Assembly: GCA_051362555.1 (NCBI GenBank)
Contig: CM120644.1
Span: 4,038,954 to 4,102,953 of the forward strand
Length of the DNA: 64,000 nt
Reading direction: 5' to 3'
Source: Lingula anatina
Taxonomy: Eukaryota > Animalia > Brachiopoda
The translations under genes were made by a program, and so were the position numbers. Positions 853 to 22,829 of the stretch are shown here, one piece after another. The notes under the pieces were generated by a model. The model was not told where the DNA came from. It saw only the letters and a list, made by a program, of their open reading frames with translations, and ran no database searches. Every line of letters begins with the position of its first letter. The first letter of the stretch is position 1.

Positions 853-3732
853 GTAAATACTGTACAGATTATGTTAACTAGACAAACAATTTTGTTATTC
901 AGTCACCTTAAATAGAACAGCCTAGCCACAATAAAGAAATAAAGAAAACATGGACCAGCCCAAACCATTATTACCCCTCCTCCCCACTCCTGGTAAGAGT
1001 CTGCATAAATAATGTAACTGAGTTTAAGCACTTTTATCGAAATATTAATGAATACTTGACTCAGCCTCGATTACATGTATACGGTATACATGTACCATGC
1101 AGTTACTGACTCGAAATTAGACAATACGTCGCCAAGGTGATTTAACTACGCCCGAGGTCAGTGACACGCACGCGGGGTAGACAACCGTGTTTTATCATTG
1201 GAGACACCCCAAAGTCTCGCATCTTGCCCTAAAATTTAGCGAGAATTCGCGGAATTTTAAGGTAGCGAGTGCGACGTATTTTCCCCTTTGACCAAGTGCC
1301 TGTTCTATTATTTCTCAATGAGACAAATAAACAACCAGATGGCTTTCGTGGCATAGACCAGAAGATCATGATACAAGAAGGTTAAAGTTTCAGTTGCACA
1401 GTATCTACGTTCATTTCAGATCAACTGTGCAGATATCAAGAGGGTAAATGCACCTTACGATAAAAACAGCCCCTTCTTACTGCGGCAAATATTGAACGAG
1501 ATATAAGGACAAACCAAGTTCGCTTTTTACCACCAAATGGAGATCGTTCTTAACCTTCAGTTTCAAAGGCTTCCTTGACACTTTTACTGGAAACCGAGGC
1601 ATATTAGTTAAATAGAAAGATACATGTACGTGTAGGTATACATATACCACTAGAGGCCAGGGCGCCAACGTACAAGAGTTCCTTATCTCTAAGACAAATA
1701 GTGAGTGAATGTTTCAACATCACGCATTTTTATATCCCTCCGTGGAGCCATTAAATCACGTGACAGGCCAAACATCAAAGAAAGTCAACTATTTATAAAA
1801 TATTGATACAAAAATACAGAAAATGTAAAGGCAAATGTCATAGTGAAATATATCATTTAATACTTGATTGACGTCTTTCCTTGCTGCTTTGTACAAGTAC
1901 TTTATTACCAATAACGTTTTGGAGGCACCTAAAGGTGCATTAAGACCATTAACTTTATGTCCATGGGCTATCTTCAAACATATCACCACTGTTTTTTTTT
2001 TCAGAGTATTTCATACAAAGAACGAGTTCACAACAAACGTAATTCTGCGCTTAAGGGTCTCACGACGAAAGGCTTTCCAAAGTACAATGTCCATCGGCTA
2101 TTTCAAAACAATGACAATGTTATTCCATATAACGGACGCTCTCGTAAAACACGCATTTCTGTGCCTGAGGGTTTCACGACGAAAGGCCACATCGCTTTCT
2201 AGAGTCCATTAGATTTTTTTCTCGAAAAGCATCAAAGTGGACCATTGCATGTGAGTAATGGCAACACAGGCCTGATCGAGGGGTGTTCAGCTTCAAGGTA
2301 CCATTACCACTGACACCTTGTAAAATACTCCAAGTGTTTGGACCATGTTAAGTGGCATTAACGCTGATGTTCACCTGTGCCCCACAGAAGGGGACACGCT
2401 ATTAATCCCACCTCGGGGCAAGGGTAGACCAAGAGGAAACCTTTTCTTAAAGATGTCAGAAGATGAAAATCGCTACACATCCTGCTTTTACGCTTTTTTC
2501 GTTGGTTCATCCAGGCGGCGTTTCTAACCTTTGCATATTTAAGTAGGCAAAGTTAAAAGTTGCCCGTCAGTTGTTAATATCCCTTAAGAGTGGCAGCAAT
2601 CACAGAGGAAGACAAAATATTTTCTGACGGAAAAGGGCATCCATACTGAGGAATATTAAGGCAAAGTATGTATGCATATATGTCAAAGACAGGACTATTC
2701 TAACGCTGAACATATCCAATCAAATTAATGAGCATTTGATCAAAACATTTTAAAGAAGGGTTCATTTCGAGCTTAAATTAACATCTTCATGGGGTTTTTA
2801 TGTTTCGATGACATGCACTCCGTAACTGGCGAGTCAGTGTGTTCTGACTGTGTTTTAATATAGTATATTAGAAAAAAATAGTTTGGGAAATTTCAAAACA
2901 TTGAATCCAAGTTCAGGGCCATATCGAGCCATGATTCGTAAGCAGGACATAATTTTTTTTTTTTGAGTAAATGGATAAGATGCGTTAAAATTACTCCGGG
3001 GTAAAGTTTGTTTGTTCTTGATCAATTATATAGACATTGCAAAATTGGCATCAATCACATGTTTGAAAATCTGAAACTTTGACACATCAAAGCGAACAAT
3101 GTGGTCTGTTTGAATTAGTTCTTCAAACTCGTGCACATAAGTAACCGTTTTGAAGATTTAAATACGTAGTCAGTTCATTTACAGACACCCCCTATTTTAC
3201 AAAATTTCATTATTCTTTATTGTGAATTTACAATTGACTTATTAATTACCTTTACAGATTTGTTTTTTATTTGAATTTTTTCTTTTTTTTATGTGCAATA
3301 ATTTTTTTTATCATCTTTGGATATTACTACTGTGGTTTAATTGTTTAGGTATTTGATGATCCCAGTGTACTAATTACTGTTTTGGTGCAGCAATAAGAAA
3401 ATGTGGCAAATAGGATTTTATCTAAAACTATTGCAACCAGCATTTAGTGAGGGAAGGAAACTGAATGACCCGTATAGTAGCAACATCTATCACTAGGGAG
3501 ATTTTAAAAAAAAAAAACTAAATCAAACAAACAAACAAAAAAAAAAAACATTCTTCTGGTCGAAAAAGTTACTCTTTAGAGACTTGTAGAAATGGCGATA
3601 AAAACAGATGAACCCTTAAGGTTAAATTGCAATCCGAGTCGAAATAGCTCATCAAAAAGCCATAAAATTATCAAACCACCGAAATAAAGTTCCCGTTTTA
3701 AGCTCATCTCTGTATCATCTCTTTCAGAAGAC

Positions 3733-6700
3733 ATGGGGCGTTCTTGTCGTCGCCAGCGGTTGTTGCTGTATATTTCACTGTTATTCGGTGTTATATACAA
3801 CCACGCAGATACGTCAGGAGGGTTGAGTAACTTGAGCGTAACGGCGGTGGTGCTAAATGGTGACAGAACAGGACATGTGAACGAGGTGACAAGGCCGCCG
3901 GTTGACCTAACCTCCTGGAAACCTTCTCGCTCCGATATCACGGTGTTCGGCTTGATCCCGGCGCCCACGCGCAAGAGAACTAGTGATACAAACACGCCAG
4001 CAGAAAAACACTCCCCCGAAAATTTGCAAAGTGGAAGACTGACGACAACGTCTTATGCCGTCAAAACGACGGGAGAAGCCTGGGATTCTGGAACCAATGC
4101 AACGTCAGCGGAAAAGATACAGGTGAATACTTCAGTGGGAACGACAACTGTCAGCTTTGACTTTGGAAGCAAAACGGAGAACACAGGCGAAGGAGTCAAC
4201 ACGCCATCAGGCAACGACACCAAAACCATGCCATTGAGCCTCCAAGACAGTGGCAAGGCAATAAGAGACTGCATCCAGAAAAATTCCATCGAGGGCATTG
4301 ACTCCAGCTACAGGTATAAATTACATCACTGCGTGTTAGAAATATGTAATAAGGGGTATGGCAAATCGGGATGTGGGTCCTTCAAGTATTTTACTTCGCT
4401 GTGTGGACGCATTAAGACCCCACAGATTAGACTTATGGCTGACGTCCCTTATTATCTAGAAAACCAAGACTGCACCTGGCATATTAATGTTCCCACGGGA
4501 TATATTGTCAATTTAACATTTGAATATTTCAACCTAGAGTTCGTTGATGGTTGCCTGTATGATCGGGTAGAGATTTATGACGGGATGGACACAACCGGCG
4601 CGCTTCTCGGTAGATTTTGTGGCAGTGCCTTTTCTTGGAGCTCCTATTCCTCGGGATCTTCTTTGACCGTTATGTTTAAATCTGACAAGTATAGAAGTGG
4701 TCCGTTAGGCTTTACAGCATTTTATGAGGCCCTGCCTGCCCAGACGTGGAAACAACACAAAACTAAACCAAACACAATATACCTCCGAGATAAAGCAACT
4801 CTAGAAGTCAATAACTCGACAATTACGGATGAATCTCAGACGCATTATATTCACAAGTTTTACGTGAGGACAGATGTAGGGAAAACGCTTGATATGCTGT
4901 GGCATATACATTCAAATGGAGATGCAAATGGTGTGCCATACGTTGTAAGAGTTCACGACGGTCCTTCAGCAGAGGCCAGTGTGTTAGTACACGTAAACCT
5001 TACGTCCGGTGAAAAGTTTGGGAACGTCACTTCAGGGACATTCCAATTTTACATAGCAGTAAGCCACGAGAAATCCAGCCAACAGACTACATTCAAAGCA
5101 AATTTTACTGGGACGTGGGCTGTTCCTTGTGTCAACCTGGAAACTGACTCAGTCCCATGTATACGGCTAAACACAAGCTGGACGGATGCTCTCGATAAAG
5201 AAATATATATGGAAATTCATACAGCTCTTACCACCTACAACATAACACAATACAACTGTAGGCCGGGTTGGTACGGACACGCTCATCATAATTATGGGCT
5301 CATGCTGCGGATAGATTTTAAAGAAGGTTACGGTTCGGAAAACGTACCAGTATTCAAAAATCCCAGGTCAAACATGTGTCCGTATGCTGGTTTGATGGTG
5401 TTTGTGGATGGCTGGGGTGACGCTGCCAAAGCCACCATTGGACCACTTTGTCATGGTGAACCATTCCAGTTTGGTGAGCTGGTTTTCCATACCCTTTATA
5501 TTGTAGTATACGTCGCTGGAGGAGCATACAATTTCCAGGGAGCTGGCTCGGTTGTTCAAGAAGGGTCCATAGAATTGGAACACATGATTCGTAAGACTGC
5601 TTTCTCAATGTTTCATCCTAATATACTGCAAGATCTCAGTAGGCTGGGTATTGAGACCTCACTGTCAATAACCAACCAAACAAATGCTGACATTGCCCAT
5701 GTTAAAAGTGTGCCTCAGCTGTCCTACTTCGACTCTGCTCCCAGTGTCCTAAACAACGCAAAGGTGGAATATCACCTGCCGGCAGATTTGAAGTATCGAA
5801 CATCAATGTTCAGATTCTATTATCACCTGGCCATTCAACCTATGTCACCAACATTTATCAACGAGCTGGACATCACTATTTCTACTGATGACAAGGTGAG
5901 TTGTCCCTATGCTGCTCGAGTGACATGCAGCTGGAGTGGTGCCAAAACTAGACTCAGACTGTACGAATTACGTCCACACTACACAAGCGAAATCTTGCAT
6001 CTGCCAGATGTGTTTTATCATTACTACTACAGGAAACATGAGACTTATATGTACCCATCACAAGATGGAAATACACGAATATATCGCATTCTGGTTAAGT
6101 TGACACATTATAACCCGTTAGATCGTTTTAGCGTCCAAATATTTATCTACCTCAATGACCCTTGTGGTCCTGGGGATTTAACTTTTTATGAAGCAGGTTT
6201 GTACTATGAGGTCACCTTCGGGACTCTTTTCAAAAACATCCCCCAAAATGGAAAGTACAGATCATACGTGTTTTCAATAGAAGATGGACCAAGTCCGTTG
6301 TGTAGCCTTGATGTAGAGCGTGTGAACTTTTGGATCAAGGAATACTTTCCATGTGAGGATGGGCCCGGTGAATGTTTAATCAACTTTGTGGAGGGGAAAA
6401 TTAAGTCCCCCTTTGTGTGGACAAGTACTTCAAATTATCGAGTTGTTTACAAAATCAACAATCAAAGTCCGATGTCTGGAGAAGACTGCAAGAAGTTTGA
6501 GGTTCAGTTCCACTTGGATCGTGAAGACAGATTTGCAGTAACTATGGCAGACACTACCAACTGTAGCGTGGCTGAGTTTGGAGGGATTGAGTTCCAAGGT
6601 AAATGTTATAACCTCGTGTATTCTGACCAGCCAATGTCTTGGATGCAGGCGAATACTCTGTGCTCCAGGACTGGAGGGACTTTGGCCATTTTCCAGACTA

Positions 6701-9700
6701 TTAAGGAGATAGATGCCATTAAGAACATCCTCATCAGGACTTGGTTTGAGGACACGGTTGTCAAAGGACATTCGCTGGTATTTATTGGACTAGAGATTAG
6801 AGATGTAAGCTAAATTCTGTTACTTATACCCTTTACCCAATGTCTGTTTTTATCTAGTTTTACTCTTGATAAGAAATTGTATTAAGGGATAGTGCTAATT
6901 TTAATTAAGCCCCACCAAACAGATCAGAATACCGGTTGCTGCAACAATTTTTTTTATTTGATGAATAACTTTTATTGTTTCTTATCATATGAGCTTTCTG
7001 AATGTTTTGTAGTGGGATACTGCGACTTGAAAATTCTTTCGGGTCCATTGCATCATATATTGATATATATCCACATATTCCAGGGTAGCAATGTTACTTG
7101 GTCTGATGGTTCACATGGTATAACCGAATGGTATGACCCCATCACTTCCAAGCACCTGCTTGATGGGAAACTAGCATTATTAAACCTCGATCCATTTCTC
7201 CGCAGTGTTTTCAACACAAAAGCTAAACAGCCAGTTCAGCGGAAAGGTAGACACTGTACCATGATGGTCCTAACAACTCCCCGTGTGTCTTCAAACTGGG
7301 TGCAAATCCCTTGTTATCTTCCTATTCCAAAGGCAGGTGCACTTTGTATGTTGTCGCTACTAAGACAAAGAAACAACAATGAAACAGACAGTTTTGCACC
7401 GCACGAAGCAGTTGGCGTCATTCTGGACACAACAAAATCAATGAAAACTGCCACTGTGGCTCCTAAGACATGCCCGAAGAAGTGGTGGAGAATTGGAAAC
7501 ACTTGCTACAAAATAGAAGACATATCCCTGACGAAAGCAAGTGCAAACATATTCTGGTGGAACAGAGGCGGTGCACTGCACGTTTTAGAAGGGTTGGTAA
7601 AAACATATTGTGAAAGATTTGGCTGGAGATTAGCCGTTTACAATGAAAATTTGAAAGATGATATTTTGAAATACATCAAAATCCACAGGCAGCCAGGAGA
7701 TATGAAGACATTAATCATGGCTGCGGACTTTGAATACGTGGATTCTGCAACTTGCAACTATGGTTCTGTAGCAGTGCATTATCCCACAGTCGTGAAGACC
7801 GAGGAAAACCCTTTAGGACACAGGTATGAAACAGTCAGTCACTAATTCCTCATTTTCCTCAATAACCTTGTTCTCATTATCCCTTTTTTCAAATGACTTT
7901 TTCTCAACATCCCTATCTCTTTAAGTGCTCTTTTTCATCACCCTCATTTATGAATGTCTGTTATTTATTTATTTATTTTACACCATAAGAAATATGCCTT
8001 CAATGTAATGCCAGTTTTATACACGGTCTGAAACGTATTTACAATTTTAGAAATATGCCTTTGATGTGATGCCAGTTTAATGCATAGTTTGACATGCATT
8101 TACAATTTTAGGTCACCAAGACAGTGGGAGATAATTAATTGCACCTTACCGGCATATGTACACCTTTGGAATATCTTTGACAGCTTGAAGTATGCTCTCT
8201 GTGAATCTGACCTTCAAATCGTTAATATGTCATGTAACAATTCAAACATTTACCACGAATGTGCAGACGGGTCTTGCATTCTGAGACACCACCAATGCGA
8301 CGGTGTCCAAGACTGTCTTGGTGGAGATGATGAGTTAAACTGCCACCTGTTGGGAGTAACGAAGACTAATTCCAACAGCCATGGTATGTGTGGACCTCAT
8401 GGTTTTGCATGTGACAAGGGGCTATGTATTCCTGTATCAAAATTTTGTGACTTCTACCCAGATTGCCCTGATGGGTCTGACGAGACACACTGCTTTCATC
8501 CCAAGTGTGATGTCAATCAGTTCCGCTGCCTCCATGGTAAATGTATCCCATTACAACATCGTTGTGACCGAATTCAGAATTGTTTTGATGGCTCAGATGA
8601 AGTTGGCTGTGGCATCACAGACTGTAGTAAATATCATAACAACAGCTTCGTTTGCTACTCTGGCAACTGTGTTTCTGACAAATATGTCCAGAATGGCGTC
8701 AGTGACTGTCCTGGTGTATTAGGCGAAGATGAATCGTGGAACAATACAGTCAAGTGTCCTTATGGTACAGTCCCTTGTGTCAATGGAACCCATGGTTGCT
8801 TCCCACCAGAAAAAGCATGTGTTCAGGAAATACTTGAGGACGGCAGCCTTGCCTATTGTACAGGTGGTCAACACCTGCAATGGTGCCAAGATTTTGACTG
8901 CCCAGGCCAAGACATGTACAAGTGCCCATCGTCGTACTGTATTAATCTACACAGTATTTGTGATGGCATTAAAAACTGTCCAGGCGGGGAGGATGAAGAT
9001 AATTGCATGACACATGCATACTCATGTCCTGGATCATTTCGTGGGAAAAAATACCAGAATTGTTTGCATTTATCAGAACTTTGTGATGGCACTGTGAACT
9101 ACTTCATCACTGAGGATGATGAAAAGTTTTGTGCTTACCCCGCTTGTCCTTCTTCGTGCACATGTTTGGGGGAGTCATTTGATTGCAGTCATCAGCATTT
9201 GTCAAAGATACCACACTATTCACTCCAACTGAGGAGTTTATCTTTTTCAGGAAATCCTTTTCATCTCACTGGTGAAACGTTTTCTCGGTTTCTGTACTTG
9301 GTGAGATTGGATATCTCTGCCTGTGAACTTTCTGACCTCCCTTACGAAGTGTTTAAAGGTCTTTTTAATGTACGAGAGCTTAATCTATCAAGTAACTTTT
9401 TAAGCATCATTGAAGGATACACATTTCAGGATATGTCCTACCTGGAAAATTTAGATTTAACTAATAACCCTCTTACCATGCTGTTGGATTATGGGTTCTT
9501 TGGCATGCAGCGTCTGGGAATGTTAAATTTGTCTGGCATGAAGATCCATTTTGTAGGCAAAAATGCTTTTGTGGGTCTTAAGAGTTTAATCACCTTAGAT
9601 CTAAGCCACAATCAAATCGATACTCTTCACAGTGGAACATTTAAATTAACTGAGAATCTTATGCTCCTGAAACTTGTAGATAACCCTTTGACTGATGTTG

Positions 9701-10755
9701 ACCCAAAAGTTATCTCAGATTTGAATCCTGAAGTTCAACTTCAAAGTAATTCTGATAGCTTATGTTGTTTAGCGTCCCATTTGTATCAGTGTTCTTCAGT
9801 AGATGGTAGTAGAAGTACCATGTGCTCCATCAACATACCCGACGTGTACTGGGAAGCTTTACTGTGGACGACTGCTATACTGATAGTTCTTGGTAATCTT
9901 GCTGTAATTGGCTGGATTTGGTTTCATAAATCTGGTATGGCTGTGCAGCATGTTGCACTCACTATTGCTGTGACAGTTTGTCAAATCCTTTGTGGTGTGT
10001 ATTTGATGTCAGTTATCGGGATGAGCTCGTATTTTGGTAGTAAGTTTTATATGCAAGCTAATGAAATGTCAAGTCCCTGGCTTTGTAAGAGTATGGCCTG
10101 TGTGTTGAATATCGCAACTGGCAGTACTTTGCACTTGATGGTGGTAATGATTTCAGAGGACATCCGACTTGTGTTGTTTCCTGATGTTGTCTTTCCAAAA
10201 ACTCGATACCTCCTGTGGTCAGGTTTTGTTCTTGTATTTTATTTCTTCATGAGCATTGCCTCAGTTGTTGGTGACTTTCACACTTCAGTCTTTTGTCAGG
10301 TGTTTGTTTATACCAAAGGAACTAGTGATGCTCTTGACTGGTTAACGATTGTTGTCAACTTTTGCCCCATCATATTTTTACTAATATTAGTGCTCGTATT
10401 GTGTTTCTCCTGGAAGCGGATAAGCAATTGGGGTCTGGAACCAGGAATCTTCAGTCGTTGGATGCGTGTAACTATCATCCTTACAGTTACCAGTTTTGTG
10501 AACTGGTTTTCAAATCTGACCGTTAAGCGCTCTGAGAGTGATCTCGAATCTGTCAATGGCCACGAATTCCTTTTCCTTCTTTCATCCGCTGTTCTAGCTC
10601 TTAACCCGTTCATTTATATTTACGGTAGACCCTGGGTTTTGGAAGTCTTACTCAAAGATGAAAGTGAAACTGATGCAACACCCAAAATGGCAGATTTTTC
10701 ATCCTGGTTTTCGTGGAAAAAAGAGCTGGGAAACAAAAGCCCAGAGAAAGAATAA
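3733..10755 (+). CDS. GRL101-like / LGR-family G-protein-coupled receptor with CUB, C-type lectin, LDLa and LRR ectodomain (~2151 aa); exons 3733-6804, 7084-7823, 8112-10755
   Basis: Three long ORFs joined by frame-consistent introns: GAT|gtaagc...ttccag|GGT (phase 0) and CACAG|gtatga...ttttag|G (phase 2). N-terminal hydrophobic signal (LLLYISLLFGVIY). CUB ~4402-4730 (CTWHINVP..VNLTFEYFNLE..CLYDRVEIYDG..GRFCG..LTVMFKSD..GFTAFY). CTL ~6562-7348 (KCY..MSWMQANTLC..GGTLA..VFIGL..WSDG..C..W..C) and ~7471-8202. ~7 LDLa (e.g. CDFYPDCPDGSDETHC). LRRNT CPSSCTC, ~7 LRRs (e.g. LDLSHNQI). 7 hydrophobic segments with TM1 GN and TM7 NPFIY. Confidence 0.9.
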
Positions 10756-12678
10756 TTTTATTGGATATCTTTTTCCGTGAATATAAACCAGAAAAATATC
10801 TCAACATTGTGGTTATAAAATATTTTATAGACTTCTACCCTTTTTTAAAACAGAAAAAGAAAGTTAATGCTTAAGATTTACAGTTTCTTGATTACACTGA
10901 AGTATAACAGATGTATCCCTCATTGAAACAGACCAATACTTTAGTCCTTAAATTGAAGGTCCCTTTTCAGTCCTAAGGTTTTTTAATGAAACCGACCCCA
11001 GGTGTATGCCCCCCTGCTTTATCCCCTGCCGGGCAGACCCTAAAATTTTTATACAGAATCTAATTCTCCACGACACCATTGGGCCTAGTTTGGTCACCTT
11101 TGTACAGATGGACCTCTTTAACTGAGAGATTGTTTGTTGACTGTGAAATGGGTTTCAGTGTGAATTGGACATAAGGATCATGCCCTAGACCTACCACAAC
11201 AAAAACAGGTCACTAACTCTCCATTAGGAATCACATTGAACCCAGTTTCTGTCCCTGCTGTTGGTAGGGATATGTAGCTTTGAAGGAATACCAATAATAA
11301 ATACAGGAACCTCGATATTGGGACATTTGGTTTCACGGTGTTGCAACATTATACATAAGTCCTAGCTATAAACATGACATTGTGATATTTTACTATATTT
11401 AAATGGCATTCAAATTCTAGAATACCCTCACTCTACATTATATAGCTCGTTATATATAACAGGTTATCCCATGTTTGTTTATGCAGTATATAGACCTGCA
11501 TTTTATCATTTAATGAACAAAAAACCTACATGTACATGTACTACCTGAGTGTTTGATTTTTTTCTTTGTTAATGTTTGGTTGGTGCCAAAACGAGGCATT
11601 CATATAACACGGGTCCATATCTTTGGTTGACACAGACACATTCAAATTGCAGGATTTTTGTTCAATGAATGACACATATATTTATATACATTTATTCTGT
11701 CAATGGAGATTATTATGTTTAAAAGGATTCTCAGAAATGTAAAGCATTTAAACTGGTCTAGTTGTAAAAACCTAGACGTCTCTTCAAGGAGCACAATAAT
11801 TGGTTTGAATTGCACTCACAGACTTCCGTAAATACATAAATACCGTAAACAAACTGGAACTCAAACGTACAGGATATGAAAAGACGACATTGCTCTTCTA
11901 GGAAAAGCTGTCTTAAAATACCCGTGCACTTTCTGTCAACAATTCACATACAGTACTCATAGGTTATCTGATTCTAAAAAGTCATGTACCCTGATACAGA
12001 ATTCATTCGTTGTTAAAACAATTGCAAAATGTATCTTTGTCATATGTTTACATTTCAATTCAGCATGTTTTTAAAAGCAGATAAATGTATACTGTCAAAA
12101 CTACCTGATTTGGGGGCACGCATGTGATGATGCAATTATTATATCTCTTTTAAACGGAAATTTACACGATCTCTACACTTTTGGCATGCAGATTGCATCT
12201 CACTAATTAATTACCCTCTACCAGGGCAACAATTTGTTTTTTTTAAATAAGATATTTACACTATGTCTTTGACTAAATGTGATCCATCTTTTAACTGTGA
12301 GAACCAAATGAGGGTATTTTTATAAACCTGTCTGTGAATATCTTGTGAAATATCAATATGTGGCCTTGATAGAGAGTACTAATTAATAGCACTTAGCTCT
12401 TTATCTGCCACTTTACTAGATCTACTGTACATCTCAATGTGAAATAAATCTTAGACTTTAAATTGAACGGGTGTTTACATTTCAGAGTTTTAACTTTTAA
12501 AAAATTTAAAGATTTACATTTAAATTTAGAATAAAAAACATTTAAAATTGTATACGGAAAGTGTTGGCTGATTTCATATTCTAGGGCTGAGATAGCTTAC
12601 ATTGCTAAACCATAGAATAACTGGCCATGTTAAGTCCACTTTGTAATATTGATTTAAGGAAGCATTCAGAGAAACCCA

Positions 12679-12909
12679 TCATACTAGCTGGATCATTCCA
12701 ACTCTGTGAGAGATTCTCTCTAAGTGCAATCACTGTAATCAGCTTAAATGTCTGACACGCCTCCTAGAGCTACTTGTAGATAATAAAACAGAGTGCACAC
12801 AAAAGTTATTACCAGCTACTCATAAAGGGATGTTAGACATTGAAGCTGATTACACTGAATGCAATTTAGCACAAAACCCCACAGAGTTGGATCGATCCGC
12901 TGGTATGAC
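12679..12909. repeat. Imperfect long inverted repeat (fold-back / old MITE)
   Basis: The left arm tcatactagctggatcattccaactctgtg...tgtaatcagcttaaatgtctgaca matches the reverse complement of tgttagacattgaagctgattaca...cacagagttggatcgatccgctggtatga; arms ~80 bp. Confidence 0.6.
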
Positions 12910-13377
12910 ATCTGAATGTGAATGTGGTCTAAGGTAGATCTTCTCAGAACAAATGTATATGACAAACCTTAATGAGCTATTGGTACTGTCTATTGATTTT
13001 GTAATTATCTAGACAGTCATAATTTGCTCCAATGATTTTGTTAAAGGGCCCCTCCAAAAAAAAAAAATAAACAAATTAGAGGATCAAAGAGGCGCTACCG
13101 CCTCCGGATATTGTACCACCAGCTGGAGTAAGCGCATTCGTATGGAAAACTCCCTCCAAAAGGGACACCACCACCAGTCTTGTGCATGACAAGCTCTATA
13201 AAATGCAATCAACAAGAGTTCTCAAAATATGCAAAAAAAATTAACTAAAAATGGTACAATCAAGCAGATTTTCGAATTGACCTGTATTTTCCTAACATTG
13301 ATTACTCCTGTGATTCTCTAGACAATAGGCCTATTGGTTTTCCTTGAAATGTGTTGTCAATGTTGCATATATGCTGA

Positions 13378-13420
<43 letters not shown>

Positions 13421-14631
13421 GGCAACACTGGGCATATCTCTGCTAGTTTTGAAGATATGAGGGACAAGAAAATATGAAAAGCTCAGTTCATGGTGAAAAA
13501 GTAGGTCAAAGGTCAATTTCAATGTCACAGTATATGACTTCCTATTCAAATTCAATAGTAACCATGGGAATTTCTTTGCCAATTTTGGAGATTTAAAGAC
13601 CAGAAAACATGTAAAAAACAGTTCATCATAAAAAGTCGGTCAAAGGTCAATTTCAAGGTCACACTTAGATTGCCAGTAAATGACTTCCTATACAAGTTTT
13701 ATAGTAGCTATGGGTGTATCTCTGCCAGTTTCGGAGATTTAAAGGAAACCTTGTAAAGTGCGGTTCATGGTGAAAAGTGGGTCAAAGGTCTATTATAAAG
13801 TCACAGTTAGATTGCCAATATATGAGTTCCTATTCAAATTTAATAGTAATTATGTGTATATCTTTGACAGTTTTGAAAGTATAAGCACTGAAAAAGTTGC
13901 AAAGTTCAGTTCATGGTGAAAAGTAGGTCAAAGGTCAATTTCAAGGTCACAGTTAAATTGCCAGTATATGATTTCCTATTCACCTTCAATAGTAACTATG
14001 GACCTATCTCTGCCAGTTTTGGAGATATAAGGAACTAAATGTTACAATTTTTGTGTTACAATAATGTGCCATAAATTTCCTACAAAAGAAATTAATTGAA
14101 ATAAAGAAAAGGTCATCTTGGTTGAAATTCTTGAAATGGGAGGTGCTCAGAAGTTCCAGATGTTCAAATTTCATGAAATTACGTCATTTTTGACCAGAAG
14201 TTGTCTGCCTCGCCAAGCCTTGTTTTATCTTCCAGTTTCGAAATTTATTACACATTACTGTATTGCACATTTTGCTTTCACCACCACAATGTACTTTTTG
14301 ATACACATAACTCGTAAACCGTTTGGAAAAAAAAAAAAACAAAAACGGAGACCACCTCCAGTGTTGGGCTTGACATGCTCTCCAAAATGCAAAAAAGAAC
14401 AGGGGCTTATTCCATAAAAGCATTCTAACTTAGCATGATACTGGGCCTTAGAATGATTCTAAGACTTGACTAGAATGGTGTCTTCATAGGAAAACCATAA
14501 AACCACAGGATCAATTTCGCCAAACAATAGGTAGTGACAGGGTGAAAGTTGAACTGAGTGCAGGCTGAGGGAAGTACTAGTCAAGGCATTCCCATGTATT
14601 CTATTAAAGCCCTATACAGAAAGTGGTCATA

Positions 14632-14824
14632 ATGGCAACTTCAGCTTTAGGGAATAGAACGAAAGCCGAATTATTCGACACAAGAAAATCTCTTCATAGC
14701 CGAATGCTATGATGAATTTAAGGACACATTAGATAGTCAACACAAGGATGCTAACACCAATGCTAGGAAAAATAAAGCTTGGGAAAGCATCCTGAATCAG
14801 CACAAGGCAAGGTTTCTTAATGTG
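14632..14824 (+). pseudogene. Harbinger Myb/SANT-like DNA-binding protein, N-terminal remnant (frameshifted, truncated)
   Basis: After a frameshift it reads RKPNYSTQENLFIAECYDEFKDTLDSQHKDANTNARKNKAWESILNQHKARF, matching the RxxN(F/Y)S..E...K..AW..I Myb/SANT-like pattern. Confidence 0.7.
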
Positions 14825-15246
14825 TACGTTTCTCATCCTATAGAACCCATCCTTGATGTTGGCCATATTTTGTGCATTTGGAAATTTCACATAATCCCCA
14901 ACCCTTGCTGCAAGAGCATTTGATACCTGATGAATCGCACGCCAAGCAGTTTGATGGAACACTTGCAAAGGGTCCCAAACAACATATTGGAAAGTGCCCG
15001 TTGCATAGTATTGCAGGGCTATCATTACCTGCTGGCATGGTAATAAGGCATGATTTCTCCTGGTAGGGTGGGTAATGTCAATTTTGACAATGTCAGTTTT
15101 CACCAAAATGCCTTCTCTGGAAAATCTGTATCTTTTTACAAGTTCCACATCATGAAAAATGTCCAACAGATTCCTTTTATCCCGAAACACTCGTTCACGC
15201 GCGTTGCGCTGCGGAGTTCCACAATTTCTAAAATTCTCCTGGCCAT
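14825..15246 (-). pseudogene. Harbinger (HARBI1-like) transposase, N-terminal remnant lacking the DDE core
   Basis: FRDKRNLLD..ELVKRYRFSREGI..HPTRRNHAL..QQVMIALQYYATGTFQ..AIHQVSNALA..YVKFP is the typical HARBI1 N-terminus; it breaks off before the GAIDCTH motif. Confidence 0.85.
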
Positions 15247-16654
15247 CCTTACACCTCGGAGGTATGAGTAGAAATGAGTTAGAATGATACTAGTGATTTA
15301 GAAGATACCCATACCTACTCTAAGTTTAGCGTGAAACTTAGAACTATACTGGGCTTAGAATGGTTTTATGGAATAGAGTTAGTAGGTAACTAGAGATAGA
15401 ATGAAGTTTAGCAACCAACTAGGGCTTAGAATGCTTTTATGGAATTGGCCCCAAGTCTCTAGTTTTCCGAATTAGAGACAGTTTTCAGTTTCGGTATCTT
15501 ATGGTTGCTACTCCCGTGAAATGCACCGATTGACCCCAAACTCACGGAGATGAAAGATGACCTGAAGGGTACGTAACACCTGCCAATAATAGGCCTATTA
15601 TGGGTTAGGTCTGTGTAGTTTCTGAATACTAGCGCAAATAATTTTGGCCCGTTTGACCTTGAAATAGAGGTCAAAGGTCAAATCCAAGGGCATATTTGAA
15701 ATCTCCACATATGACTTTCAGTCAGCCGTCTATAGAAATTTTTCCCATAATTCCTTCGGTATGGTGGATAATTAGCATTTGATTTTGCCATTTTTGGACA
15801 AGGGTGCATTGCAATGAGCGCCACACCTAGACCCCAGCACCGACGAAACCCAAATTTTATGTGGAGCGAGTTGAGATATAGATGACATAAATCCAAGAGA
15901 TGGGTACGCATGCCCTTGTAGTCATTCTAAGAGGAGAAGCGGTAACGGTAACATGGCGGCTGAGCCGGCGGAACGATCCGGACGGGACTAAAACCATGTG
16001 TACCGCCAACGCTGGTGGTACATAGATCAAATATAAAAAATATAAAAATAAAACAAACAACTACCCGATGATTGAAAGCATTGTTAGAATAATTTATTAA
16101 GCACATTGTCTACTGATCAATTCTCAGTTACAATTTATTATGGGGACTAATACAGGGGGGAGGCTTTTCCTCAAACAAGGCATAGCCAATACACCCCACC
16201 CCCTCACGATATACATGTAAACTATACAACATAATGCTGATTTTTTTTTTGAATTGCCAACTTATAAAAGCAATAATGACTATACTGACAACTGTACAAA
16301 GACTGAACAATTTTTCAGAAAAATAAATAAAAAAATGTGAAATGAGGGGAGAAATGTTCCTGTTAGCAATCTGCCTCCAGTAAATGAAACAGACACTTTA
16401 CTCCTCATAGAAAATTTTGACCCAAAAATAGCCTCCAAACTGCCTACGACATTCATACAGTATTGAGATTATTCTAAAAGTCGACCTCAGAAGTGTAGTC
16501 TTTTAGTTCTAATACACACTGCAAAACAGAAAGCTGAACTAGATCTTGGCACTTAATAAAAACAAAAGCTTTTCAAAAATAAGGAAAGAAAAGCATATAA
16601 TTGCACCACTTGTAAAGAAAACCACATTGATGTGTAGGGAAAAACATAACTGAC

Positions 16655-18339
16655 AACAAGGCAGCAAAGCTGTCAAATGTACAGACAAAGAACAGAAAAT
16701 AAAGATGCAAATAAGTGAAAAATTAAATTTTCACAAAAAACTGTTAAATTGCCAGAAAAATTTACCAAACAGACTGCGTTGCCTATTGAAGCTGTATTTT
16801 AGTCCCATGTTTCTTTCCTATAAGTTTGAGAACAGTAAGTGACATGATTTCCCTTAAATGGTCATCATAGGAGCAGTGCCCAAAATAGGGGTTTCTTCAA
16901 ATTTTGATACAACATTAAATAATGTTTAACAGCATAATGACAATCAAATGTTATTAATAAAATATTAGTAACATGGACATTCAGAAAATGTGACAAGCAA
17001 AAGTCTTCAAGATCATGGAACTTTAAAGTCACACCTTGAAAATGCCAATATGTGAAAAATTAAATTTTCACAAAAAAACTGTTTAACTGCAAAAAAAAAA
17101 AAAAAAAAAAAAAAAAACCAAACAGACTTCATTGCCTACTGAAGCTGTATTTTAGTCCCATGTTTCTTTCCTGTAAGTTTGAGAACAGTAAGTGACATGG
17201 TTTGCCTTAAATGGTCATCATGGGAGCAGTGCCCAAAATAGGGGTTTCTTCAAATTTTGATGCAATATTACATAATGTTTAACAGCATAATGACCATCAA
17301 TTTTTAATAATGAAATATTAGTATCATGGATATTCAGAAAATGTGACTAGCAAAGGTCTTCAGGCTCATGGAACTTCAAAGTCACACCTTGAAAATGCCA
17401 AAATGTAAACAAGACAGCACTGTTCTGAAATGGGTTTATTTCCATTTTTAACACTTTTTAACATAAAACAAAATAAACAGTTTACTGCCATTTTTATATG
17501 ATCAACTAAGAAAATTGATGAGATGGGAAAAATATCAACAGAACAGTGTTAAATGTCCAATTTCCTCCATTCTGAGATTCTGAACATAGTGGATGATTGA
17601 ATCTGACAAACTGCAATGATATGAGTTTATTTCCATTTTTGACACTTTATTACACAATACATGATAACAATTTTAGCATCATTTTTACATAATCAACTAA
17701 CAATGTTATAAAGATGCAGGAAATGTCAAACAAACACTTTTACGTATCTTATTGGTTCAATAATGAGACTGTTAACATGCCTAAGAATTGAATCTGAGGA
17801 AATGTGTAAAAACAGCATAACTTCTAAAATAATGGCCCAATTATACTGATTTTCGAACACAACCTGCGTTTTAGTAAGACTGACCACTCCTGTGAGTACA
17901 ATGACAATTGGCCTATCTGTTTTTCTTATATTTTGTTATCAGTGTTGCGTATATGCTGAAAAAAGTGAAAAAACAGCATAACTTCCATAAAAGTGGCCCA
18001 ATCAAGCTGATTTTCGAACTTGACCTGCGTATTATGAACATTCATCAGTTCAGTAAGTTTCAATCCAAAAAGTAAAGCGGTTTTTCACTTATCGTGTTAT
18101 CGGTGCTGCATATATGCTGAAAAAAGTGAAAAAACAGCATAACTTCCCTAAAAGTGACCCGATCATGCTGATTTTCGAACTTAACCTGCGTATTATGAAT
18201 ATTCATCAAGTCTGTAAGTTTCAAGCTGAAAGAAAAAATGGTTTTCCATTTATCGTGTTATCGGTAAAAGTGCACGGCGACGACGACAGACGCAGGTGAT
18301 GGCTATATGTACAGACACATCTGTGTCTGTACATAAAAA
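16655..18339 (-). mobile_element. Non-autonomous Helentron/HINE-like element, family B copy 1
   Basis: Highly similar to 43490-45339. Begins aacaaggcagcaaagctgtcaaatgtacagaca and ends with (gac)n plus palindrome tgtacagacacatctgtgtctgtaca. Contains an internal duplicated block and ~161-bp repeats. Confidence 0.75.
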
Positions 18340-19471
18340 GAGAACCTAACATCATCTGCTTCAGAAAAATAGAGAAATATATGACTTTCAATGGTGTGAA
18401 AACATTCAAATTGTACACAATGATTAACAACCAAAGCAGGGGAAATACATATAAAATTCACCATTTTACATTCTTAATATAGGCAAAAAGTATTAAACCT
18501 AAAAGAGGCATAAAATCTTTATTTTTCACTGATAAAAATAATACTAGAGTATCTGGCAACTTATTCCACATCTCACTTTTTTTGCACATGGTAAAACGAA
18601 TATTGTATATATATGGCAGTGTGGTTACAGCTATGCCGCTTTCAGCCTTAGCTTATCAAAATGAACTCTGATAAAATTACTTGCATCCTACAACTTAATA
18701 TTACAAAATGGTAAGCTCAAGCTTATAATTTAAATGTGTAAAAATATGCAAATCTCGACTAGAAGTGTTTTTACACACTTGCCCTAAATCACTTAGTTGA
18801 AAAAGTAGACCATACATAAACAAAAATAATAAAAAAGCTACAAAAAAAAAATAAATAAATAAATAAATACACAACAAGAACAATATATGTTAGCCTATGT
18901 GAGGTAATCTACAGAAATAAAATAAAAAAGCCAACTTCGCATCATCTGCTATGACTCCCTCTTGGATACAAAAAATGATGCCAGTTTCACCAATGATTTT
19001 AAAAAATTGGCCTCAACTTCAGGACAAAAAAAAGGTCTACTTTTGTTCAAGATAATTTCTTTGTAATCTACATGTTAGATACATAATTTTTAGCCAAAAA
19101 CATTTGCTGTGTCTTTCTTCTTATTGAACCAGGTCCAGAGAGATAAAACTGACAAATCTTGATGAAAGTAGACAAATATTTGGGTCTAAAAGTTTAAAAA
19201 TTTTGGATTTTGAATGATGAAGTTCCAGTGTAAAGTTCTTTTATGAAACTGCTTTGAAAAGGGTCAATCCTCTGATACAAAAATTAAAGGTGTTACTTAC
19301 AAAATTCAGGGACCATTCTTTCCAAATATATACAGTTACTACAGAAAAAAACTAATACTGTGACAATTAAACAATTCACTTCAGCATTCTCAGAATTTCA
19401 AAATAGTGCCCTGGTACCAAAACTGATTTGCAAAACAGACCTCAAGTTCTGTTAAAATTCAGCGAGTGTTC

Positions 19472-19476
<5 letters not shown>

Positions 19477-19529
<53 letters not shown>

Positions 19530-19696
19530 CCAACTGTTTGTGCCACTATGTTATTCTAGGTAATAAAGCATATTGGGATCACAATATAGGCAACATGCTG
19601 TACTAAAACAGTGAGACTAGGAGAAAATAAAAGCAAACACTAACATTTACATTAAAAAATGTAGAAAATATGTGCTAACAGGAAGAACACAGGATT

Positions 19697-19748
<52 letters not shown>
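19477..19748. repeat. Two long poly(A) tracts (~50 nt each)
   Basis: Homopolymer runs at ~19477-19527 and ~19698-19748. Confidence 0.9.
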
Positions 19749-19750
<2 letters not shown>

Positions 19751-22638
19751 AATAAAGTGACATATACTATGCCTTTCAATAAAGTTGACAGCTTTAAGTT
19801 TTAGAATGAAGTAAAAAAAATTCCCAACAACATATATAGTATTTGGCTCATATATCACTCAAATATCTTCAATTATTTCTTCAAATCTGTTGAAAGCCCT
19901 GGGGGAAAAAATCTGTGGGCCATTTTGTAGACATTCTTTGGTTTTGACGCATATGAACATATGCACTGTGTACTATCATGCGGCCAATTTCATCACTGAG
20001 TAGCAAGGCTGTTGGAATTATTTCTATATCAGCCTTACTCAGTATGCATATAAGAGCAAAATACTTCAGTTAATGATCATTTAATTTCAATATTGGGAAT
20101 TTTTCCTTTGTTGATGTTGGGACTTTTTTTTGTGAAATGAAAAGCACAAGTAGACAATGTGTTTCATTTCGTTTCATTTTCTATAAAGGAGATTCCTCTT
20201 TTTTTGATGAAATAAATTTTTTTTCATCAAATTGAAGTCATGTTTTAACCAAAATGAGCAGATGACAATATACAGTACACTGCAAAACTAAAGAAACTAA
20301 AATTATATCACAAATTATACTTTCCTTGTTACACTGGTATTTCACAGTAGTTGCACAAACCCTTTAAAAAGATTAAAAAAAAAAAAAAAAGGGTTGGTCA
20401 AAACTGAAACCTGTGGCTCCATCTGCTGTTAAAGCAGTTGAAAAAAGTTTTGTTAGAGAAGAGAAACATAATCAGTATCAAATAATCCCACTGTGCAAAG
20501 CATCATCTAAAGCTGTGCATTGAGCTACAACACAAGTGCCATTTTAGAAAGATAACATATAAAACTGACGCCACCACTTTGAACAATAACGATTAACAAG
20601 ATCAGCAAAAGACACTGGATTTCCCAGTCTCCTTATGCTTGTCTTGGGTGACCTTCACCTTTATAATGCACATATAATGAAAAATACTGGCAAATCTTTA
20701 GTAAATAACAGATGACAAGTTAATGGCACAAAGCAAGAACTAATATCAATGATGTGAACAAATTGCACCTATGCAGAGGGGGGAGGAGGGGGGGGGGGTG
20801 CACCATATTCAAAACGTGAGAGACCCCCTGGCTCCAGCACCTGTATTATACAGACAAAATTACAACTAGGACAACAGAATTCAACCAATGATGACTAAAA
20901 AAAATGTTGACTGACCTCTTACATCTAGGTGTTTTAGAGTTATAACCCTAAGCAGAATCTAAATATTCAGACTAGAAAAACACTCGCCCATCAGAACAGC
21001 TAAAAACATTTCAACAGTTAAACATAGAAAGGTTTCTCTCAAAATTGAGATCTGGCAGCTAGTGCCAAGGCATACAGCGCATACCTAGTGCAATATAATC
21101 CTTAATAACAATATCTTTCATAAAATACATGCCAATATACAAACATGCAAGCAGTAACATATTCATTGACCTTTATGCGTTCTTTACAGTTTTATACTAC
21201 ATTAACCATACAAAATTAGATCTTGGTCCTCAACTAGTTTCCACTACATAAAATACAAACTGGTTCTACTTGAACATATGTATATTATATGTTACAATAT
21301 CAATAATAAGTATACAAATATACTGCTGACAGGCAAATCCAGTTGGCAGATTACACTTCACGATGAGATGAAATTGTCAAATATCTACACAAGAAAAAAT
21401 AGCTACAAGCTTTTTGGCACTAAATTGACTGTGACAAAAAGGACCTTTTCAATTAAAAGCTAACAATTTACATTTAAAAACCTGTTTTTTCAATACAAAC
21501 ATTCAATTATCTGTATTCCAGATATCAGACTTAACATTATCAAACAAGACAATCTTATCAGCAAAGTAGCAGCAACTATGAGGGCAAATTTTCTTGTAGC
21601 CTCACAGCTAACAATAATTTCATCTTTTATCTACAATTTGAATAAAACATTTTCCCCCCTTTAAACCTTATACAGAATCACTTTTTTTGTACAATGTAAA
21701 ATAATGCGTTAACTTTGCACAGTAATCAACAAATAATAAGCTTAAGTCACTAACATGGAACAGATACAATAAGTAACCTCTACAGTATTTTTTCATAAGA
21801 TACTAGAAAATGCTTTCTTAACAATATGATATTGCTACCACAACTAAATGACCCAACAGCCTCTGTTAAATGTTTTGGCTGATACTTATGGTGAATCAAA
21901 ACCATAAAACAAAGGTGTATATCTGAACTTTGTAAATGCCCTCCATTTTCAAATATGACTAACATCAAGTTCTTTTCACGTTGAGCATAGCACAATTTTG
22001 AAAGTGAAGTCAAGTCCCCTGTAGCACAGTTCTGTGGTAGATTCTCTCAAAACATACTGCTACAAACAGAATGCTGTAATGATGCTTGAAGTTAAAAGGC
22101 CTTAAGGAGATGTCTTCCCATACCTTGGTATGTGTATCAACAGTTTGCAAAAGCTGCTGAGCAGAATCAATACAAAGCAGTAAAAAAATCATGATGAAAT
22201 TAACCATATGTATTCTGTAATAGTGCAATGAAATTCCTTTTCTTTTCTCCTCATTTCATGTTCAGTAGTTTTAATTCAAGGTTAATTGTTTCATAAAATG
22301 AAAATTCCTCTTTTGCTTAATTATACTGTCCTAATTGCTGTAGTTTCACTTAGAAATTGAGGCATTGAGGACAGAATAACACAGAACATATGCTAGGAAA
22401 TCAGGTGCAATATTGTAGCCACCAAACACTTATCTGAATTGTTTCGTGACCAAAAGATTGGGAAAAAAAGCAAAAACTGCAATACCAAAAATTTGGAAGA
22501 CTTACATTTTAACCTTTACTGAATTAGTTTTTTTTTTGTTTTTGTTTAATTAAGTTTGGGATTTCATCAATCATTAATATCTGAGAGATCATCACATTAT
22601 CTAAGACTCAATCCAGTTTCATTCATTCAAAGGCGTGT

Positions 22639-22829
22639 GGACTAACTAATCCTCAAAACAAATATTGCAAGAATCACTTGAAAGCATGCCCCTTAATCCA
22701 CTCATGATTTATAGATGTAATTGCTCTACCCCTGCAGGGATGGCATGCGAGGGAGGTGGGGAATTCATTAGGGAATTATGCAGCATGCTTTCAAGTGTGC
22801 CCCATATTTGATCTGCAGATCAGTTAGTC
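22639..22829. repeat. Imperfect inverted repeat downstream of the POU6 stop
   Basis: gactaactaatc..aaatat..cacttgaaagcatgc pairs with gcatgctttcaagtg..atattt..gatcagttagtc. Confidence 0.6.

What the first reader, a model, noticed from the sequence alone, without database searches (positions are those of the whole stretch)
3733..10755. Giant mosaic receptor: CUB + two C-type lectin + LDLa + LRR ectodomain on a GRL101-type 7TM
Seen: one spliced ~2151-aa ORF, of which ~1850 aa is extracellular. Known: Lymnaea GRL101 and RXFP-type LGRs have LDLa + LRR + 7TM only. Here ~1300 extra N-terminal residues add a S/T-rich stalk, a CUB domain, ~600 aa I cannot assign, and two CTL-like domains. Inference: a pattern-recognition or carbohydrate-sensing GPCR that couples immune-type recognition modules to an LGR scaffold. 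Similar architectures may exist in automated invertebrate annotations, but I cannot name a characterised one.
Basis: partly seen in the sequence, partly recalled or inferred. Interest (0 to 1): 0.8.

Follow-up and report, generated by a model that had tools for sequence, protein, structure and literature searches.

The report
Giant invertebrate receptor with eroded switch
This intact animal gene encodes a predicted 2,151-residue cell-surface receptor from a widespread, unnamed invertebrate group related to the snail receptor GRL101; its outer binding modules are well kept but the key residues that normally switch on G proteins are lost, so it likely captures or presents a ligand rather than signalling in the usual way.

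Summary
In detail: three GT-AG exons join in frame to 2,151 aa with no stop. Both introns cut C-type-lectin-like (CTL) domains, a Lingula protein aligns across both joints, and the first intron recurs in 11 related loci, so this is one gene. The architecture is not unique. CTL+LDLa+LRR+7TM receptors are published for Biomphalaria (PMC12297450). CUB+CTL+LDLa+LRR+7TM proteins sit uncharacterised in databases for Saccoglossus, Patiria and Nematostella, and ~2,000-aa relatives occur in metagenome contigs. About half of the 'unassigned' 600 aa is one supported and one marginal degenerate CUB; ~320 aa stay unassigned. The CTLs lack the Ca2+/sugar motifs, so 'carbohydrate sensing' is unsupported. The overlooked feature is the 7TM. 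It keeps 19 of 82 family-invariant residues, against 91 of 121 in LDLa+LRR. Arg3.50 is Asp, and the ECL2 tethered-agonist motif is lost. Such erosion is family-wide, but 30 of 30 divergent relatives keep Arg/Lys3.50. Best reading: a GRL101-like receptor that likely binds ligand without canonical G-protein coupling. Splicing and expression are not shown. New variant of a known kind; interest 0.4.

The parts
3733..6804 (+). Coding exon 1 (aa 1-1024): signal peptide, S/T-rich segment, CUB region, first half of CTL1
   Evidence: ORF 3688-6813
3733..3816 (+). Predicted signal peptide (aa 1-28); an acceptor-like tract ends at 3727, so an untranslated exon may lie upstream
   Evidence: read from the sequence; no predictor run; inference
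3820..4257 (+). S/T-rich N-terminal segment (aa 30-175, 29% S+T)
4402..4734 (+). CUB1, canonical (aa 224-334)
   Evidence: Pfam PF00431 E 6.6e-20
4765..5118 (+). CUB2, degenerate (about aa 345-462)
   Evidence: hhalign of the query/Lingula pair to a 96-domain CUB alignment: probability 84%, score 33 against a best shuffle of 17 in 40
5128..5592 (+). Probable third CUB-like unit (about aa 466-620), marginal
   Evidence: cysteine pair aligns to the CUB pattern but the score is at shuffle level; third CUB clear in the relatives' profile, probability 90%; Atlas lead CUB 0.86 for the Lingula equivalent
5593..6552 (+). About 320 aa still unassigned (aa 621-940)
   Evidence: no significant Pfam hit; 0 hits for aa 335-940 among 1.84 billion representatives; no CUB signal
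6562..7350 (+). CTL1 (aa 944-1113), split by intron 1; lacks EPN/QPD and WND motifs
6805..7083 (+). Intron 1, phase 0, inside CTL1; position shared with 11 related loci
7084..7823 (+). Coding exon 2 (aa 1025-1271): second half of CTL1, linker, most of CTL2
7471..8202 (+). CTL2, strongly degenerate (aa 1154-1301), split by intron 2
   Evidence: 13.6 bits against a best shuffle of 6.5 in 500
7824..8111 (+). Intron 2, phase 2, inside CTL2
8112..10755 (+). Coding exon 3 (aa 1271-2151 and stop)
8233..9132 (+). Seven LDLa-type modules (aa 1312-1611); modules 4 and 7 have each lost both cysteines of one disulfide pair
   Evidence: Pfam PF00057; cysteine list; alignment; disulfide pairing recalled
9145..9744 (+). 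LRR N-cap and 6 clear LRRs, probably a seventh (aa 1616-1815)
   Evidence: highest-confidence part of the model
9745..9849 (+). Short type-C-like hinge with four conserved cysteines, partly eroded
9844..10665 (+). Eroded rhodopsin-type 7TM (seven predicted helices, aa 1849-2122)
10159..10161 (+). Position 3.50 is Asp1954 where class A receptors have Arg
   Evidence: fixed by two anchors, Cys3.25+25 and the ICL2 proline
10294..10305 (+). ECL2 reads C-Q-V-F where LGRs have C-hydrophobic-P-hydrophobic
10603..10617 (+). NPxxY motif, intact
10666..10755 (+). Short cytoplasmic tail (about 29 aa) and stop; no kinase-like extension; first AATAAA downstream at 11296

Best explanation
This is an intact, predicted 2,151-aa member of an invertebrate radiation of GRL101-like (type C2 LGR) receptors with a CUB-CTL-CTL-LDLa-LRR ectodomain, and it likely binds a large protein or glycoprotein ligand at the cell surface without canonical G-protein coupling, acting as a capture, decoy or co-receptor protein. 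Shown: open three-exon frame, domain order, homology across both introns, conserved intron, loss of Arg3.50 (to Asp), Asp2.50, Trp4.50, Asp6.44, Pro6.50 and the ECL2 C-phi-P-phi motif. Inferred: (1) the gene is spliced and expressed as modelled; (2) the CUB, LDLa and LRR modules and the sugar-site-less CTLs bind protein surfaces; (3) without the ECL2/hinge tethered agonist that activates RXFP1 and without a basic residue at 3.50, ligand binding would not open a normal G-alpha site; (4) the retained helices, disulfide and NPxxY would keep folding, surface delivery and perhaps internalisation or partner binding. Family placement about 0.9; the uncoupled mechanism about 0.55.
For: One gene: both introns fall inside CTL domains; Lingula XP_013411659.1 aligns in one piece over aa 287-2041, 438 of 1815 columns identical, E 1e-142; Saccoglossus XP_006813017.1 aligns over aa 901-2131; 11 ORFs in the 48 related loci end in the first half of CTL1, and all 11 have a phase-0 GT donor just after the same motif. 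Kept as a protein: no stop in 2,151 codons; two LDLa modules lost both cysteines of a pair together. LGR fold: seven helices; top Foldseek rows are LGR4 and TSHR (E 2e-13 to 9e-13); VIA-align to RXFP1 7tmw Z 21.2, rmsd 3.4, 257 aligned. Uneven constraint: 91 of 121 invariant LDLa+LRR positions kept against 19 of 82 in the TM; longest TM branch of 28 rows. Arg3.50 lost here and in Lingula (Cys) but Arg (28) or Lys (2) in 30 of 30 divergent metagenome TMs and Arg in 7 of 7 canonical ones. PMC3873998 (passages): this Arg is kept in 93% of human class A receptors. RXFP1 preprint 10.1101/2022.01.22.477343 (passages): ECL2 Phe564/Leu566 and hinge Leu402/403 are required for signalling, and the motif is shared by human LGRs.
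Against: No functional data. TM erosion is family-wide (8-20 of about 46 invariants kept in the full-length divergent relatives; L028 and L031 are as eroded as this gene), so erosion alone does not show uncoupling. Asn1.50, Cys3.25 with its ECL2 partner, Trp6.48 and NPxxY are kept, as is, by my manual count from Trp6.48, a basic residue at 6.35; an Arg lies two places after 3.50. Some class A receptors signal without Arg3.50 (recalled). TM confidence in the model is only about 30-70 pLDDT and the alignment held five LGR relatives, so the fold match is partly circular. The 30 relatives are largely paralogues from few assemblies, not independent. The tree does not resolve this gene's place. No splice-junction read was seen.
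Confidence: 0.5

Rival explanations
1. A working sensory or immune GPCR with a non-canonical switch: the mosaic ectodomain binds environmental or pathogen-derived molecules and the divergent 7TM still couples to a G protein or arrestin.
For: NPxxY, Trp6.48, Asn1.50 and the disulfide are kept. GRL101-like genes are expanded and expressed in tentacles and palps of apple snails (PMC6573481), in starfish sensory tentacles (PMC6267866) and triton tentacles (PMC13403566). CTL-bearing ones lie in a schistosome-resistance region (PMC12297450), and GRL101-annotated genes appear in differential-expression tables after infection (PMC13619432).
Against: Acidic residue at 3.50, where 30 of 30 divergent relatives keep a basic one; ECL2 motif lost; very short TM5-TM6 loop and weakly hydrophobic TM6 (best 19-residue mean 1.23); no sugar-binding motifs. 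In PMC12297450 the validated variant lies in a neighbouring Zn-RING-IAP gene, not in the receptors.
Confidence: 0.32
2. A paralogue under relaxed selection on its way to becoming a pseudogene, little or not expressed.
For: Extreme TM divergence; many related loci carry frame breaks (these may be assembly errors); almost no reads on exon 3 in four RNA runs in which nearby repeats were deep and the neighbouring POU exons had about 1x.
Against: No stop or frameshift in 2,151 codons, intact splice sites, paired cysteine losses, and erosion confined to the TM while hydrophobic helices persist. Only 6-30% of each run was read and tissues are unknown; sensory-cell receptors are often rare in bulk RNA (general knowledge).
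Confidence: 0.12
3. A true GRL101 orthologue acting as the second receptor for an IGF-like peptide (Veenstra's hypothesis).
For: Multi-LDLa + LRR + 7TM order matches type C2 LGRs (PMC8286064, PMC4079206).
Against: 7 rather than 12 LDLa modules, extra CUB/CTL, TM only 17-19% identical to canonical relatives that are 39-46% identical to each other. PMC8286064 found one GRL101 orthologue per ambulacrarian species studied, whereas this layout comes in many divergent copies.
Confidence: 0.04
4. Two or three separate genes (a secreted CUB/CTL protein beside an LDLa-LRR-7TM receptor).
For: No junction reads were obtained.
Against: Each intron cuts a CTL domain; the exon 2 and 3 frames show no signal-peptide-like start; single annotated proteins span both joints; intron 1 is conserved; no AATAAA/ATTAAA within either intron.
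Confidence: 0.02

Closest known systems
Biomphalaria sudanica SudRes2 GRL101-like receptors (Nat Commun 2025, PMC12297450; passages and rows of Supplementary Data 7 seen)
   Same: CTL + LDLa + LRR + 7TM in one chain; few or no introns; proposed there as pathogen-sensing GPCRs.
   Different: Those are about 860-1,300 aa, carry InterPro GPCR signatures (IPR000276, IPR017452) and have no CUB entry in the rows seen. This one is 2,151 aa, has two CTLs and two or three CUB-like units, and escapes Pfam 7tm_1. No tandem copy lies within the window. Orthology not tested.
Lymnaea GRL101 / type C2 LGR (as described in PMC8286064, PMC4079206, PMC11863921; passages seen)
   Same: Several LDLa modules, about six LRRs, short hinge, rhodopsin-type 7TM; orphan.
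   Different: 12 LDLa and no CUB or CTL in GRL101; here 7 LDLa, about 1,300 extra N-terminal residues and an eroded TM core.
Uncharacterised database proteins: Lingula XP_013411659.1, Saccoglossus XP_006813017.1, Patiria XP_038053125.1, Holothuria KAJ8026620.1, Nematostella XP_032218080.2
   Same: CUB, CTL, LDLa, LRR and 7TM in one chain. Lingula is collinear over 1,755 aa of the query and also lacks Arg3.50, Asp2.50 and Pro6.50, with a similar C-Q-x-F ECL2.
   Different: The four non-Lingula proteins keep canonical TM motifs, add other modules (kringle, F5/8, EGF, MAM or pentraxin) and have long tails (kinase-like in Nematostella); this protein has a tail of about 29 aa.
Human RXFP1 (type C1 LGR; PDB 7tmw; bioRxiv 10.1101/2022.01.22.477343, passages seen)
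   Same: LDLa-LRR-short hinge-7TM scaffold; predicted TM fold superposes (Z 21.2, rmsd 3.4, 257 aligned).
   Different: One LDLa; activated through ECL2 Phe564/Pro565/Leu566 and hinge leucines, with Lys at 3.50. Here these are Gln/Val/Phe, an eroded hinge and Asp.

Membership tests
Type C LGR (by descent) | LDLa module(s) N-terminal to the LRRs | tested here: met
   Pfam PF00057, then PF13855, in exon 3; feature as stated in PMC11863921
Type C LGR (by descent) | LRR array with N-cap and cysteine hinge before TM1 | tested here: met
Type C LGR (by descent) | Rhodopsin-type seven-helix bundle homologous to LGR TMs | tested here: met
   13.3 bits on a profile of five relatives against a best shuffle of 8.9 in 500; seven helices and LGR/class A fold matches (partly circular). 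Pfam 7tm_1 gave no hit.
Type C2 / GRL101-like in the broad sense | Multiple LDLa modules | tested here: met
   7 by cysteine spacing, 5 by Pfam; usage as in PMC4079206
GRL101 orthologue in the strict sense | 12 LDLa repeats directly at the N-terminus | tested here: not met
   7 modules preceded by CUB/CTL
GRL101 orthologue in the strict sense | TM groups with Lymnaea GRL101 in a tree | not tested
   No GRL101 sequence was held; in the 28-row tree this gene is the longest branch and its place is unresolved
SudRes2-type GRL101-like proteins (PMC12297450 definition) | GPCR TM + LRR + LDL + CTL in one protein | tested here: met
   definition
SudRes2-type GRL101-like proteins (PMC12297450 definition) | Common clade with the Biomphalaria genes | not tested
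Canonically signalling LGR / class A GPCR | Basic residue at 3.50 (D/E-R-Y type motif) | tested here: not met
   Asp1954 by two anchors
Canonically signalling LGR / class A GPCR | ECL2 C-phi-P-phi tethered-agonist motif | tested here: not met
   C-Q-V-F
Canonically signalling LGR / class A GPCR | NPxxY and the Cys3.25-ECL2 cysteine pair | tested here: met
Canonically signalling LGR / class A GPCR | Measured G-protein coupling | not testable with these tools
   needs cell assays
Ca2+-dependent sugar-binding C-type lectin | EPN or QPD motif plus WND motif (rule recalled) | tested here: not met
   CTL1 has QPV and WVQ; CTL2 has neither; Patiria and Holothuria keep QPD at the same place

The most novel reading that the evidence does not exclude
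A pseudo-GPCR among LGRs: a branch (this gene and possibly Lingula's) of an unnamed, pan-invertebrate family of ~2,000-residue CUB-CTL-LDLa-LRR receptors has kept its binding arm but dismantled the G-protein switch, and serves as a decoy, scavenger or co-receptor beside signalling paralogues, as atypical chemokine receptors do in vertebrates. The ~320 unassigned residues could be an undescribed extracellular domain.
Probability: 0.4. Interest if true: 0.62.

Novelty: new variant of a known kind. Interest (0 to 1): 0.4.

Why it matters
GRL101-like receptors are orphan, strongly expanded in some molluscs, tied to sensory organs and located in a schistosome-resistance region of snails, yet no mechanism is known. 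This gene shows that (1) the CTL-bearing design called unique to B. sudanica belongs to a wider family with CUB-extended ~2,000-aa forms; (2) some members are invisible to Pfam 7tm_1, so GPCR censuses would miss them; (3) at least one member has lost the core activation residues. That makes a direct test possible: compare coupling of this 7TM with a canonical paralogue. If it is uncoupled, these repertoires would include decoys or co-receptors. As one more uncharacterised mosaic LGR, it is of moderate interest only.

Tried and rejected
RNA: no RNA holder listed. Eight of the nine runs with the same species label were laid. X1, X2, X4, X7 on 1500-12500 at 95% gave 0 reads, with no control for the organism. 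X3, X5, X8, X9 on 7500-27499 at 90% gave depth 0 on the gene except 0.03 and 0.08 in one bin each, no junction, with repeats deep and the POU exon bins at 0.04-1.7. Inconclusive. No whole genome was held, so copy number is unknown. Single-sequence AlphaFold of aa 210-940 failed (pLDDT 31) and was not used. HMMER of aa 335-940 against 1.84 billion representatives: 0 hits. Word search with the hinge+TM alone among long proteins: 0 of 1,432 candidates. The exon 1 search gave 3 cubilins and 1 Nematostella mosaic among 4,588 candidates; the LDLa-LRR-TM search gave 18 of 2,290, of which 4 are family members. The idea that all 600 aa are four cryptic CUBs was not supported: aa 621-940 scored at shuffle level; the joint alignment was out of register and its segment scores were set aside. 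A profile of 13 metagenome exon-1 ORFs detects only CUB1 of this protein (14 bits); aa 335-940 scored 0.4, within shuffles, and the Lingula N-terminus was not among the top rows, so homology of that region to those loci rests on layout and the shared intron. No paralogue in the window. Atlas hits come from the Lingula homologue, and the CUB hit is a lead under 0.9. Literature: ten searches listed no paper describing a CUB+CTL+LDLa+LRR GPCR family or an LGR lacking Arg3.50; most listings were seen as titles only, and the library lacks most subscription papers. PMC11521371 and PMC2246102 (passages) held nothing on this architecture; the latter reports CUB, CTL and LDLa on amphioxus adhesion GPCRs, a different class. 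One scanned supplement of PMC12297450 was not searchable, and bioRxiv supplements were not read. Counts: 33 TM-bearing ORFs from 32 of 48 loci were aligned (L043, partial, and 15 loci without a TM were left out); 11 partial rows were dropped from the tree.
Full report
1. Observation. The window is animal DNA. On the + strand, exons 3733-6804, 7084-7823 and 8112-10755 have GT-AG introns of phase 0 and 2 and join to 2,151 codons plus stop, with no internal stop. Pfam finds CUB (aa 240-329), a sub-threshold Lectin_C (aa 967 on), five LDLa stretches and LRRs. A profile from relatives' CTLs confirms CTL1 (63.5 bits) and a degenerate CTL2 (13.6 bits; best of 500 shuffles 6.5). Cysteine spacing gives seven LDLa-type modules, and six LRR cores match a pattern. 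The S/T-rich part (aa 30-175) follows a probable signal peptide, which I read by eye.

2. One gene. Intron 1 falls inside CTL1 and intron 2 inside CTL2, so neither exon group encodes whole domains alone. Lingula XP_013411659.1 aligns in a single piece with aa 287-2041 (438 of 1,815 columns identical, E 1e-142), and Saccoglossus XP_006813017.1 with aa 901-2131. A scan of metagenome contigs gave 48 related loci from 60 pattern matches. In 11 of them an ORF ends in the first half of CTL1, and all 11 have a phase-0 GT donor just after the same motif as here: 9-15 nt in ten loci and 12 nt in this gene; in L040 the pattern caught an earlier match, 24 nt away. L005, L007 and L022 hold an unbroken ORF of 940-980 aa followed by a second ORF of 980-1,110 aa ending in a TM, so about 2,000 aa is a normal size for this group. 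RNA gave no test of splicing.

3. The unassigned 600 aa. Residues 335-940 have no hit among 1.84 billion representatives. Profile comparison of the query/Lingula pair with 96 CUB domains gives a second, degenerate CUB at about aa 372-461 (probability 84%, score 33, best of 40 shuffles 17). A third unit at about aa 521-577 has the CUB cysteine pair but scores at shuffle level. In the relatives' own profile, three CUB-like units appear in the same order (67%, 13%, 90%), followed by about 350 aa with no match. The Atlas ranks CUB clusters first for the Lingula equivalent (0.86, a lead only). So two CUBs are supported, a third is probable, and about 320 aa remain unexplained. Direct similarity of aa 335-940 to the metagenome loci was not detectable.

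4. The lectin-like domains. CTL1 has QPV where Patiria and Holothuria have QPD, and WVQ at the WND position; CTL2 has neither motif. By the usual rule, which I recall and did not look up, these would not be Ca2+-dependent sugar-binding lectins. Binding of protein or of sugar at another site is not excluded.

5. The 7TM. Pfam 7tm_1 does not hit it at E<=10, and phmmer finds no PDB relative for it alone. It scores 13.3 bits on a profile of five relatives (best of 500 shuffles 8.9). AlphaFold with six sequences builds seven helices at modest confidence; the top Foldseek rows are LGR4 and TSHR, and the bundle superposes on RXFP1 (Z 21.2, rmsd 3.4, 257 aligned) as well as on other class A receptors. 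It is 17-19% identical to relatives that are 39-46% identical to each other. Of positions invariant in Patiria, Saccoglossus and Holothuria, it keeps 91 of 121 in LDLa+LRR but 19 of 82 in the TM; Lingula keeps 90 and 38. Lost: Asp2.50, Arg3.50 (Asp1954, fixed by Cys3.25+25 and by the ICL2 proline), Trp4.50, Asp6.44, Pro6.50 and the ECL2 motif. Kept: Asn1.50, Cys3.25 with its ECL2 partner, Trp6.48 and NPxxY. The RXFP1 preprint (passages) shows that ECL2 and hinge residues are needed for signalling and states that the C-phi-P-phi motif is shared by LGRs, with an alignment of the human ones. PMC3873998 (passages) puts Arg3.50 in 93% of 282 human class A receptors.

6. Against over-reading. Erosion is a family trait. 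Thirty divergent TMs from the metagenome loci also lose many motifs (Asp2.50 in 9 of 29, Trp6.48 in 10 of 25, Pro7.50 in 11 of 25), and two are as eroded as this one. What they keep is a basic residue at 3.50, in 30 of 30. This gene and Lingula are the only two of 39 rows without it. The relatives are mostly paralogues from a few assemblies, so they are not independent. This gene groups with Lingula in a six-row ectodomain tree (98/96, both long branches), but its place in the 28-row TM tree is unresolved.

7. Still a protein. There is no stop or frameshift. In LDLa modules 4 and 7 both cysteines of one disulfide pair are missing together (pairing C1-C3, C2-C5, C4-C6 recalled), which random decay would seldom give. 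All seven helices stay hydrophobic, TM6 least.

8. How it likely works. The chain would be secreted to the surface and anchored by the 7TM, with an arm of CUB, CTL-fold, LDLa and LRR modules that likely binds a large protein or glycoprotein. Lacking the ECL2/hinge trigger and the basic residue at 3.50, binding would not open a normal G-alpha site, so it likely captures, internalises or presents ligand, or partners a signalling paralogue (0.5). Rivals: a working sensory or immune GPCR with an unusual switch (0.32), relaxed decay (0.12), a true GRL101/IGF receptor (0.04), separate genes (0.02). The ligand and tissue are unknown.

9. What is known. Type C LGRs are defined by LDLa before the LRRs, with C2 for GRL101-like receptors (PMC11863921, PMC4079206; passages). 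Lymnaea GRL101 has 12 LDLa and six LRRs (PMC8286064; passages). PMC12297450 (passages and supplement rows) describes a cluster of 12 GRL101-like genes in B. sudanica, ten with CTL+LDL+LRR, calls the CTL unique to them, and proposes pathogen sensing; its main text does not mention CUB. Expansions and sensory expression are reported in PMC6573481, PMC6267866 and PMC13403566 (passages). CUB+CTL+LDLa+LRR+7TM occurs in uncharacterised entries of Saccoglossus, Patiria and Nematostella by Pfam, and in Holothuria with the CTL seen by alignment. Ten searches listed no paper on the CUB-extended form or on an LGR without Arg3.50. I file this as a type C2-like LGR by descent, not as a GRL101 orthologue and not as a shown G-protein-coupled receptor.

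10. Context and verdict. No paralogue lies in the window, though only 3.7 kb are visible upstream; the next gene seen is a POU-homeobox gene on the other strand. The eroded signalling core is the part worth a test. New variant of a known kind; interest 0.4.

Noticed in passing
window 26400-32000, - strand: Multi-exon POU-homeobox gene (Pfam Pou and Homeodomain at 27131-27355 and 26516-26794), class VI-like by my recall, with low RNA depth in four runs.
   Followed up: partly
window 14651-15289: Myb/SANT-like ORF on + (PF13873) overlapping a transposase-like ORF on -; looks like a PIF/Harbinger remnant (the transposase label is by eye; Pfam gave no hit).
   Followed up: partly
window 51668-54382 and 13439-14042: 146-bp satellite of about 19 units, with related copies 38 kb away; the family is abundant in polyA RNA, with strand bias in the stranded runs.
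   Followed up: no
window 16703-18268 and 43538-45262: Two dispersed repeat families shared between these places, with 353-bp and 161-bp internal periods; heavily covered by RNA reads.
   Followed up: no
P0004, P0011, P0015, P0017 C-terminal tails: The canonical-TM relatives have long tails; in Nematostella the tail gives weak kinase hits (E 0.005). This gene and Lingula lack such a tail.
   Followed up: partly
L006, L007, L011, L012, L015, L017-L020, L029, L032, L035: A subfamily that has lost the ECL2 cysteine and Trp6.48 yet keeps Cys3.25 and Arg3.50.
   Followed up: partly
L024:1-10328: Two family members in tandem, so clusters exist elsewhere.
   Followed up: no
L047:3097-6192: Unrelated 1,032-aa single-exon ORF with a beta-helix-like N-terminus, a cysteine-rich middle and a multi-pass membrane end, beside a family member (seen by eye).
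   Followed up: no
window 60663-60757 and 61243-61337: 95-nt inverted repeat, 91% complementary, 485 nt apart; possibly a MITE.
   Followed up: no
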